DNA from: Podarcis pityusensis | Lineage: Eukaryota | Assembly: GCA_964106645.2 (NCBI GenBank) | Contig: OZ067048.1 | Strand: one strand, 5' to 3' | Length of the DNA: 64,000 bases | Shown: positions 53,712 through 55,121 of the stretch, piece by piece | Numbering within the stretch: position 1 is the first letter of the stretch | Layout of the letters: each line of letters opens with the position of its first letter | Notes under the pieces: model-generated | Told to the model about the DNA's origin: nothing | Databases searched by the model: none | What the model saw: the letters and a program-made list of their open reading frames with translations, nothing else | Translations under genes and position numbers: made by a program

Positions 53712-55121
53712 TATATGCCAAAGATATTGGTTACAAAAGAAGTCAAGGCAGTGATGATACATTGGGCTAGAGATTTTGGGTATTATATCCAACTTTCATC
53801 TTGGGAAAAGTTTTGGAAAGAAGAAATAAAATTTACTGCATGCTGTTCATTGAAAGAAAACTATATGAAAATGATGCATTGTTGGTATCTAACACAGAGT
53901 AAAATTGCTAAAATGTACAAAACAAGTTCAAAATTGTGTTGGAAATGTAAAGAGAATGTGCTAGTCCCGGGGGGAAGGTTACCGTTGTTGTAGTCAAAGT
54001 CCAGTCCTGAATCACTAGCCTGGAAACGGTTCACAAGGAGCGAGGCGAGGTCCGAAGCAGGAAGCCGGGCGGGGACAGGAACACTGGAAGGTCAGAAGCA
54101 GGAAGCCGGGCGGGGACAGGAACACTGGAAGGTCAGGTCTGGGTCCGGGTAGGAGCAGGTACTCAACGACGACGTTGCTTCCGCAACCTGGGACCAGGCT
54201 GACTGGCCTTTATCTTCTCTGAGACCAGGGGCGGTCCTGGTCCCCAGGAGACCCTCCTCTCCTGGCCTTAAGGCGAGCACTCCTCCTGGGAGAAACCAGT
54301 TCCCTTCGCCTCTCTGCCCTGAGCCTCTGCAGTTCAGGAGAGGCTGAAGGGTTACTGGGCCCAGGGGGAGACTCACCTGTAGGCACTGAGTCCTCAACCA
54401 CCTCTGGAGCCAGAATGGATTCACCTGGTGCCTGCTCCTGAGGATCCGGCACAGGTGTAGGCGCCTCAGAATCAAGGCCCTGCCCCAGTTCAGCCGGCCC
54501 TGGAGGCGGGGACTCCTGTGCAGGCTGGGATTCCTCCGGTTCATCCTCTGAATCGGATTCCCAGGCCATCACAGAGAAGGAGGGTACTTTTTACCATATG
54601 TGATGGACAGGTAAAGGCTTTCTGGGAAATGATATATAAGGAACTAAAGAACATGTTTAAAAATACATTTGTTAAAAAACCAGAAGCCTTACTAGGTATA
54701 ATATGTGAAGAGTTACCAAGAGAAGATAAAAGACTTTTTATGTATGCAACAATGGCAGCGAGAATGCTACTAACCCAGAGATGGAAGGAAGGAGAAATAC
54801 CAACAAAAGAAGAATGGCAGATGAAACTGACGGGGAAGATCCAAAACCAGGAAGATCAAGTATTTTCTAAAGATTGGAGTCAATTTGTAATTTATTTAAA
54901 AGACCACTGTAAACAATTAAAATCTTTGGCAGGGATGCAATGACACTTGTAATGTGGAATTATTTATGGTAATTATGGTTATATAATACATGGATAATGG
55001 TAAAAGATGCAGCAAATTTAAACTTAAACATGGAACCCATGGAGGGAGGGAAGGCAGTCCGAAGGTTCAAAAGAACCATGTATTTCAATGTATGAGATGA
55101 TTGTGTTTTATATGTATAAAT
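53712..55121 (+). mobile_element. Older L1-clade 3' fragment split by an LTR insertion
   Basis: The ORF2 C-terminus (..[41 protein letters not shown]) continues across 53957-54573. Confidence 0.85.
53957..54573 (-). mobile_element. Solo LTR (617 bp), probably Gypsy-type
   Basis: TGTG...CACA termini and 5-bp TSD GAGAA (53952-56, 54574-78); removing it restores the L1 reading frame. Internal ~41-bp tandem duplication at 54055-54134. Confidence 0.88.

What the first reader, a model, noticed from the sequence alone, without database searches (positions are those of the whole stretch)
54210..54572. Solo LTR whose whole U3 is an ORF ending in an HMGN-like nucleosome-binding motif (PRRSARL)
Seen: in the TSD-flanked LTR (53957-54573, minus strand) a stop-free frame runs from the 2nd nucleotide for 120 codons. 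It stops at a TATA-like GATAAAG. The peptide is acidic and Pro-rich, then basic: ...ELQRLRAERRRELVSPRRSARLKARR (RRSARL at 54270-54287). Known: RRSARLSA is the HMGN core that binds the H2A/H2B acidic patch, and some retroviruses encode proteins in U3 (MMTV Sag, HIV Nef overlap). Inference: in full-length elements this is either the pol/integrase tail reading into the 3' LTR or a U3-encoded accessory protein (ATG at 54569) that tethers the element to chromatin. Solo LTRs would then spread an HMGN-mimic coding sequence through the genome.
Basis: partly seen in the sequence, partly recalled or inferred. Interest (0 to 1): 0.72.

Follow-up and report, generated by a model that had tools for sequence, protein, structure and literature searches.

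The report
Lizard retrotransposon integrase with HMGN-like tail
This is a leftover end-repeat of a lizard jumping gene; in full-length copies the same DNA codes the last 120 amino acids of the integrase and ends in RRSARL, the nucleosome-gripping core of HMGN proteins, which likely helps the integrase hold on to chromatin, while the lone repeat itself probably makes no protein.

Summary
Observation confirmed. 53957-54573 (minus) is a solo LTR with a 5-bp target duplication, inserted in a decayed LINE. It belongs to a young, high-copy Tf1/sushi-type chromovirus (Ty3/Gypsy). In full-length copies one frame runs gag-PR-RT-RH-IN-chromodomain straight into the 3' LTR (28 of 30 young loci). The 'U3 ORF' is therefore the integrase tail: an acidic disordered linker, a short basic helix, then RRSARL. 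It is not an accessory gene. The likely transcription start lies downstream of it, so solo LTRs are not expected to express it. RRSARL is unchanged across six subfamilies while its flanks change, and a distant family in the same genome has RRSKRL at the same place with different codons. Against this, that family's sister lacks the motif, only 1 of 167 other chromovirus-type proteins has it, and the tail as a whole evolves no differently from neutral decay. Best mechanism (inferred, about 0.45): a nucleosome acidic-patch tether beside the chromodomain; the main rival is a nuclear localisation signal. Pol frames that enter the LTR are known in plants; my searches found no HMGN-type motif described for a retrotransposon integrase.

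The parts
53957..54573 (-). Solo LTR (617 bp, TG...CA) of a Tf1/sushi-type chromovirus (Ty3/Gypsy)
   Evidence: internal region identified in full-length copies L031 and L032
54574..54578 (-). 5-bp target-site duplication TTCTC, upstream copy
53952..53956 (-). 5-bp target-site duplication TTCTC, downstream copy
54210..54572 (-). U3-coded frame of 120 codons plus stop; in full-length elements the C-terminal tail of integrase after the chromodomain
54342..54572 (-). Acidic, proline-rich linker, predicted disordered (in the L032 copy: 18 D/E, 16 P, no K/R in 77 residues); evolves like neutral sequence apart from its first 30 codons
54255..54341 (-). Basic block (SPELQRLRAERRREL, weakly predicted helix, then VSPRRSARLKARRG); fewer amino-acid changes between subfamilies than the linker
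54270..54287 (-). RRSARL, identical to the first six residues of the HMGN core RRSARLSA
   Evidence: motif as given in PMC12487698
54208..54214 (-). TATA-like GATAAAG, which contains the stop codon of the frame in this subfamily
   Evidence: promoter role inferred from its position 30 nt before the self-priming site
54175..54184 (-). Site complementary (10 nt, G-U allowed) to the sequence just after the 5' LTR in two full-length copies: inferred self-primer and approximate start of R
   Evidence: self-priming of the Tf1/Sushi group per PMC6317226 passages
54048..54129 (-). Two tandem 41-bp repeats in R/U5
54574..54943 (+). Host of the insertion: 3' part of a decayed LINE ORF2, which continues on the other side at about 53673-53956
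   Evidence: about 70% identity to other LINE remnants in the window, one beside an RVT_1 frame; the label L1/Tx1-type is recalled

Best explanation
The stretch is a solo LTR of a lizard chromovirus whose U3 DNA doubles as the coding sequence for the last 117-130 residues of integrase, and the RRSARL at its end likely acts as an arginine anchor that tethers the integration complex to the nucleosome acidic patch. Shown: in full-length copies pol reads through the chromodomain and the polypurine tract into the 3' LTR and stops at the TATA-like box; the tail is an acidic linker followed by a basic block with RRSARL. Inferred: the tail is translated from genomic RNA, whose 3' LTR contains U3; the roughly 80-residue flexible linker lets the basic block reach a nucleosome face while the aromatic-cage chromodomain reads histone tails, giving two-point chromatin capture; LTR-LTR recombination left this solo copy, whose own promoter lies downstream of the frame, so it probably makes no peptide. 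Odds by step: integrase tail about 0.95; solo copy silent as a gene about 0.85; acidic-patch tether about 0.45.
For: One 1623-codon frame in L032 carries Ty3 capsid, protease, RT, RNase H, integrase, SH3 and Chromo domains and ends with the tail. Read-through to the motif in 28 of 30 young loci and in 3 of 13 older loci, with a fourth entering the LTR in frame. The same tail is on Podarcis muralis proteins at 90% identity. Six subfamilies keep the frame through length changes (117, 120, 130 codons); RRSARL is unchanged while the three residues before it and the one after it change (subfamily G was found through the motif, so it counts only for the flanks). Amino-acid changes between subfamilies are depleted in the basic block relative to the linker, judged against private mutations (8/44 vs 24/44, p=0.012), while silent changes are not (p=0.24). 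Family X (54% identical over SH3 plus chromodomain; LTR best blastn E 0.27) has RRSKRL at the end of its own LTR-coded acidic tail, about 30-40 nt before a TATA-like box, with different codons at 4 of the 5 shared residues. RRSAR is the part of HMGN2 seen on the acidic patch, and Dsup (RRSSRLTS) and Dot5 (RRSARIAT) bind with other residues at positions 7-8 (PMC12487698; bioRxiv 10.64898/2026.01.14.699602). Low-level RNA, apparently sense, covers IN through U3 into R for this family in a related organism.
Against: The whole tail is not distinguishable from neutral decay (silent/replacement 40/72 between subfamilies vs 49/107 private, p=0.27). The block alone against its own private baseline is not significant (p=0.31), and a first, biased baseline gave p=0.63. 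Several tests were run without correction. The six motif codons show no silent change among subfamilies A-E either, so promoter DNA constraint is not excluded. Family Y, the well-supported sister of X (99/97), has a basic tail without RRSxRL; family Z stops right after the chromodomain. Rhineura, Vipera and Crotalus tails are acidic then basic but lack the motif. Only 1 of 167 other SH3+chromodomain proteins has RRSxR[LI], against 25 of 167 with RGRP. In family X only 8 of 30 copies keep RRSxRL intact; 10 differ only by CpG-type transitions and 12 otherwise, and only one X locus with an internal region was read (L219, in frame but with two stops). 9 of 13 older internal copies of the window's family are broken before the LTR.
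Confidence: 0.47

Rival explanations
1. The tail is real integrase sequence, but its basic block is a nuclear localisation signal (possibly phosphorylation-gated by the adjacent S/T-P) or a general DNA-binding patch. The likeness to HMGN is what R/S-rich basic patches often give.
For: What the lacertid families W, X and Y and the snake and amphisbaenian tails share is a basic cluster, not RRSxRL; Y looks like a bipartite NLS. Ty1 integrase has a C-terminal NLS (PMC2490736, listing and abstract start), and potential NLSs are reported in beet chromovirus integrases (PMC3605345 passages).
Against: S, A and L, which add no charge, are unchanged in six subfamilies while neighbouring residues vary, including the S-P site, which is lost in subfamilies C, E and G. 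Family X repeats the R-R-S-x-R-L spacing with other codons. An NLS and a tether are not exclusive.
Confidence: 0.33
2. The tail is a tolerated run-on: pol lost its stop codon and the GC-rich U3 is translated without use. What conservation exists near RRSARL is promoter DNA upstream of the TATA box.
For: Linker and whole-tail changes match neutral decay. Silent divergence is also low in the last 37 codons in single-copy comparisons. Family Z has no tail.
Against: The frame is kept across six subfamilies with up to about 25% silent divergence and only in-frame length changes. Silent divergence in the block equals that of the linker in the deepest pairs (B-G 0.22 vs 0.25; D-G 0.26 vs 0.23) while replacement divergence is about a third. 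The acidic-then-basic layout recurs in LTRs that cannot be aligned.
Confidence: 0.14
3. A stand-alone U3 accessory peptide starts at ATG 54569 and is expressed from solo LTRs, acting as an HMGN mimic on host chromatin.
For: ATG at LTR nt 5 with G at -3 and +4; 21 of 25 solo copies keep the frame; some family RNA reads enter U3 from varied flanks, so read-through transcripts from host promoters exist.
Against: The ATG is simply part of the read-through junction. The inferred transcription start is downstream of the frame. Frame retention in solo copies is expected at about 2-5% divergence. RNA reads laid on this locus are nearly all under 99% alike (5 of 443 in two bulk runs reach it) and come from an organism that may not be the window's species.
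Confidence: 0.06

Closest known systems
Tf1/Sushi-group chromoviruses (vertebrate V-clade: Sushi-ichi, Amn; names as listed in PMC6317226, passages read)
   Same: Gag-pol order, chromodomain at the integrase end with the Y-W-Y cage residues, TG...CA LTRs, 5-bp duplication, no tRNA-type primer site and a self-complementary primer site.
   Different: Pol continues about 120 codons into U3. Many fish and amphibian relatives in my hits end within a few dozen residues of the chromodomain, often with RGRP; many of those are gene models with unreliable ends.
Plant CRM group A chromoviruses with the CR motif; beet Beetle7 and Bingo1-4/7 (PMC3059260, PMC3605345, passages read)
   Same: The polyprotein frame extends into the 3' LTR; in CRM group A the LTR codes a chromatin-targeting module, so solo LTRs carry its coding DNA.
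   Different: The CR motif replaces the chromodomain; here a group I chromodomain is kept and the LTR adds a linker and a short basic motif. No CR-motif similarity was reported by Pfam.
HMGN1-5 core RRSARLSA, tardigrade Dsup, yeast Dot5 (PMC12487698 parts 1-2 of 5 read; bioRxiv 10.64898/2026.01.14.699602 passages)
   Same: RRSARL, including the two arginines that contact the acidic patch in HMGN2, in a disordered context.
   Different: Positions 7-8 are KA/QA. The motif sits at the C-terminus of an integrase after an acidic linker rather than in a small free protein. Binding is untested.
Foamy virus Gag chromatin-binding site, KSHV LANA, CMV IE1 (PMC9040877, passages read)
   Same: A short arginine-anchor peptide on a mobile-element protein tethers its genome to nucleosomes: the proposed mode of action.
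   Different: Those are Gag or herpesviral proteins with other motifs; that review has no occurrence of 'retrotransposon' or 'HMGN'.

Membership tests
Chromovirus (Ty3/Gypsy) | gag-PR-RT-RH-IN domain order | tested here: met
   L032
Chromovirus (Ty3/Gypsy) | Chromodomain at the integrase C-terminus | tested here: met
   PF00385 E 3e-14 at residues 1437-1484; folded with pLDDT 86-93; Y, W, Y cage residues present
Chromovirus (Ty3/Gypsy) | Paired LTRs, polypurine tract, target duplication | tested here: met
   L031 and L032: LTR pairs differ at 11 and 1 of 618 positions, 5-bp duplications; no env-like Pfam domain in the polyprotein
Tf1/Sushi group | Self-priming instead of a tRNA primer | tested here: met
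   10-nt complement 30 nt after the TATA-like box in 2 of 2 full-length copies; sequence after the 5' LTR does not start with TGG. Sequence signature only.
Tf1/Sushi group | Placement by RT-RH-IN phylogeny with named reference elements | not tested
   Only a 114-column SH3+chromodomain tree without named references was built; the vertebrate rows group apart from the fungal rows with weak support, 67/89
HMGN proteins | Core octapeptide RRSARLSA | tested here: not met
   RRSARLKA (RRSARLQA in subfamily G)
HMGN proteins | Small free protein with nucleosome-binding domain followed by an acidic tail (layout recalled) | tested here: not met
   Fused to integrase, acidic part comes first; no Pfam family hit for the tail
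HMGN-like acidic-patch motif (Dsup/Dot5 type) | RRSxR[LI] with the anchor arginines in a disordered region | tested here: met
   motif forms
HMGN-like acidic-patch motif (Dsup/Dot5 type) | Binding to nucleosomes that depends on the acidic patch and the arginines | not testable with these tools
   needs a binding assay
U3-encoded accessory genes (MMTV Sag type, recalled) | Independent ORF with its own transcript or spliced mRNA | tested here: not met
   Frame is continuous with pol; no splice joint into U3 and no discrete start listed in three RNA runs at low depth, which is weak evidence
CRM group A (CR motif) | CR motif in place of the chromodomain, plant CRM clade | tested here: not met
   Chromodomain retained upstream of the polypurine tract

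The most novel reading that the evidence does not exclude
Squamate chromoviruses turned the U3 of their LTR into a coding module that appends a second chromatin anchor to integrase, and at least two distant lizard lineages use an HMGN-type acidic-patch motif there while others use an AT-hook-like or NLS-like patch. This would be a retrotransposon integrase that mimics HMGN, coded by DNA that is also its promoter and left in thousands of solo copies.
Probability: 0.4. Interest if true: 0.72.

Novelty: new variant of a known kind. Interest (0 to 1): 0.5.

Why it matters
How vertebrate Gypsy elements find and hold chromatin is little studied. If the tail binds the acidic patch, it extends the arginine-anchor strategy of foamy virus Gag and LANA to a retrotransposon integrase, and adds a natural HMGN-like motif beyond HMGN, Dsup and Dot5. 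A 30-40 residue peptide makes it cheap to test. If it is only an NLS, the result is a modest but clean description: a vertebrate chromovirus whose whole U3 is overprinted by the integrase tail, parallel to plant CRM elements. It also explains gene models in lizard annotations that begin MAWDSDS.

Tried and rejected
Complex prediction of the lizard's H2A and H2B with tail residues 203-240 of P0001: no verdict, score 0.02 against a mark of 0.34, controls not run. It counts neither way, and PMC12487698 reports that AlphaFold 3 also misplaces HMGN2 on the nucleosome. Pfam on the U3 peptide: no family. ESM Atlas on the tail: no usable hit. Run search: no holder on record as RNA listed. Plain Nei-Gojobori ratios (tail 0.41-0.69, integrase 0.06-0.14, 2 of 6 pairs p<0.05; net 0.39-1.00, interval below 1 in 4 of 15 pairs) looked like purifying selection, but I do not rely on them because private mutations give a similarly low ratio. 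The baseline was biased by a filter on peptide content and was redone without it; both are reported. A first count of tail motifs (2 and 6 of 144) used a filter that dropped fish proteins and was replaced. A search for relatives of P0090 (RRSARI tail) printed no further RRSxR tail among its new hits. Literature: 'RRSARL' (77 papers, 40 listed, none on retroelements by title); acidic patch + retrotransposon + integrase + C-terminal + HMGN (0 papers); some searches gave only reviews or plant and fungal work. Only the open library was searched, no supplements were opened, and Repbase/Dfam entries for lizard Gypsy families were not available, so the family or its read-through may be described there.

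Full report
1. Observation. The minus strand from 54573 to 53957 begins TG, ends CA and is flanked by TTCTC on both sides. It interrupts the 3' part of a decayed LINE whose two flanks match other LINE remnants in the window at about 70%. From LTR nucleotide 2 the frame is open for 120 codons and ends at the TAA within GATAAAG; RRSARL is at 54287-54270.

2. The family. A search of the own genome gave 1880 candidates, of which 40 were scored, at 89-100% identity. Of the 30 loci fetched, 25 are solo LTRs with perfect 5-bp duplications, 3 are 5' LTRs and 2 are 3' LTRs; 25 of 30 keep the 120-codon frame. Two LTR pairs lie 5 kb apart. In L032 a single 1623-codon frame (1557 from the first Met) holds Ty3 capsid, protease, RT, RNase H, integrase, a Tf2-type SH3 domain and a chromodomain, runs on across the polypurine tract into the 3' LTR and ends 117 codons later, just past RRSARL. 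Its two LTRs differ at 1 of 618 positions, so the family is young. L031 is broken by frameshifts. The closest named proteins are from Podarcis muralis, 90% identical over the last 244 residues with the same tail.

3. The U3 frame is the integrase tail. Of 30 loci found with the internal region of L032 (one is L032 itself), 28 read without a stop from the chromodomain to the motif; one has a stop in the chromodomain and one a truncated LTR. Of 13 older loci found with the L031 region, 3 read through to the motif, 1 enters an internally deleted LTR in frame, and 9 are broken before the LTR by stops or by length changes in both directions in a G-run. The sequence after the 5' LTR does not look like a tRNA primer site. 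It is complementary over 10 nt to a site 30 nt downstream of GATAAAG in both full-length copies, the self-priming signature reported for the Tf1/Sushi group (PMC6317226, passages). That the self-primer is the first bases of the transcript is recalled knowledge of Tf1. This puts the likely start near 54184, so the whole frame is U3, upstream of the LTR's own start. A solo LTR would then not transcribe it except by read-through from a host promoter. In a related organism's RNA, reads of one orientation (sense, if the library is of the usual stranded kind) cover integrase at depth 1-5 and the 3' half of the LTR at 15-28 in run X23, with no discrete start. Reads laid on the window's locus are almost all from other copies: 2 of 237 and 3 of 206 reach 99% likeness.

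4. Anatomy of the tail. An AlphaFold2 model on a 7-row alignment folds the chromodomain (pLDDT 86-93), leaves the tail mostly below 50 and gives a weak helix at residues 207-219, just before the motif. In the L032 copy the first 77 tail residues hold 18 D/E, 16 P and no K/R; the next 29 hold 11 K/R.

5. Selection. Six subfamilies (A, the window's; B, C, D, E, G) have tails of 117, 120 or 130 codons. G was found with a pattern for synonymous variants of the motif: 723 matches against 5 for the control, and all 30 loci read are of this older subfamily. Single-copy dN/dS was 0.06-0.14 for integrase and 0.41-0.69 for the tail. Net between-subfamily ratios from 111 intact copies were 0.39-1.00. Calibrated against private mutations in 69 copies chosen by DNA search only, the whole tail is not different from neutral (40/72 vs 49/107, p=0.27) and the linker is neutral (p=0.67). 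The first 30 codons give p=0.03 and the basic block alone p=0.31; replacement changes in the block are depleted relative to the linker (p=0.012) while silent changes are not (p=0.24). These tests are uncorrected and suggestive only. RRSARL shows no net replacement between any subfamilies, while the residues before it vary (VSP, VAP, GSL, SSR) and the one after it too (K, Q). Among 113 distinct LTR sequences held at that point, 86 read RRSARL and 17 RRSAHL or RRSACL, the CpG-decay products.

6. Outside the family. Three other chromovirus families were found in the same genome. Family X (L219; 54% identical over SH3 plus chromodomain; no LTR match better than E 0.27) has an LTR-coded acidic tail, in frame with the chromodomain in the one internal copy read (two stops), ending ESPRSRRRSKRL before a TATA-like box. 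The motif is in the frame of LTR nucleotide 2 in 3 of 4 copies checked and uses different codons from the window's family at 4 of 5 shared residues. It is intact in 8 of 30 copies, altered only by CpG-type transitions in 10 and otherwise in 12. Family Y, sister to X with 99/97 support, has an acidic then basic LTR frame (SPKTRRREK...KRKG) without RRSxRL; its link to the chromodomain frame is broken in the copies read. Family Z stops right after the chromodomain. Gene models from Rhineura, Vipera and Crotalus show the same acidic-then-basic tail without the motif; Rhineura ends in RGRP. Among 236 database proteins outside the family, 59 lacked an SH3+chromodomain pair by my filter and 10 ended too soon; of the remaining 167, 1 has RRSxR[LI] (P0090, unnamed), 1 a near form (a Podosphaera protein) and 25 have RGRP. 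Many are spliced or decayed models, so these counts are rough. Two earlier notes of this scan describe AT-hooks after fungal chromovirus chromodomains; they are leads only, and my RGRP count points the same way.

7. Mechanism. The common theme is a second short basic module after the chromodomain. For this family I favour a nucleosome tether (about 0.45). RRSAR is the segment of HMGN2 resolved on the acidic patch, with R23 and R26 as contacts (PMC12487698, parts 1-2 of 5 read). Dsup and Dot5 bind with different residues at positions 7-8 (same paper; bioRxiv 10.64898/2026.01.14.699602, passages). Uncharged motif residues stay fixed while neighbours vary, and the spacing recurs in family X. An NLS or DNA-binding patch (about 0.33) explains the patchy distribution as well and may coexist with tethering. 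A useless run-on (about 0.14) fits the neutral linker but not the kept frame. A stand-alone accessory peptide from solo LTRs (about 0.06) conflicts with the promoter geometry. All functional steps are inference; nothing here shows binding.

8. Known and new. The element is a chromovirus by every feature tested and carries the Tf1/Sushi priming signature; placement with named references was not done. Frames that extend into the 3' LTR are described for plant CRM group A, where the LTR codes the CR targeting motif, and for beet Beetle7 and Bingo elements (PMC3059260, PMC3605345, passages). Acidic-patch tethers are described for foamy virus Gag, LANA and IE1 (PMC9040877, passages). It is not an HMGN: the octapeptide and the protein layout fail. 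Ten searches of the open library showed no paper on an HMGN-like motif in a retrotransposon integrase or on LTR-coded tails in squamate chromoviruses; subscription papers and repeat databases were not searched. Verdict: new variant of a known kind, interest 0.5.

Noticed in passing
L219 (G000:C10:44027300-44029300) and L222-L251: A second, older chromovirus family whose LTR codes an acidic tail ending ESPRSRRRSKRL; its LTR cannot be aligned to the window's.
   Followed up: partly
L217, L218, L282-L306: A third family with an extra acidic stretch between chromodomain and polypurine tract and an LTR frame ending in a bipartite-NLS-like basic run; many of the listed copies lie on contig C19.
   Followed up: partly
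G000:C19: This 38-Mb contig holds a large share of the listed older LTR copies (subfamily E, families Y and Z), as a repeat-accumulating sex chromosome might; not tested.
   Followed up: no
L116 and related loci against L032: Subfamily C copies mostly show a 1270-codon open frame at the pol end while subfamily B shows one 1623-codon gag-pol frame, which suggests that gag and pol are separate frames in some subfamilies and fused in others.
   Followed up: no
database proteins P0027, P0073, P0074, P0202, P0219, P0221 and others: 25 of 167 chromovirus-type proteins, several from fish, have an AT-hook-like RGRP right after the chromodomain; a search for chromovirus + AT-hook + integrase + chromodomain listed only one review.
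   Followed up: partly
window 21562-30787, minus strand: Exons of a cytochrome P450 gene (PF00067; CYP1-like by recall), with a GC-rich stretch at about 32.6-33.3 kb upstream; 23 kb from the LTR, no link seen.
   Followed up: no
P0025, P0053, P0228, P0229: Podarcis gene models that start at the 5' LTR ATG and are joined to gag; probably annotation artefacts of the open U3 frame.
   Followed up: no
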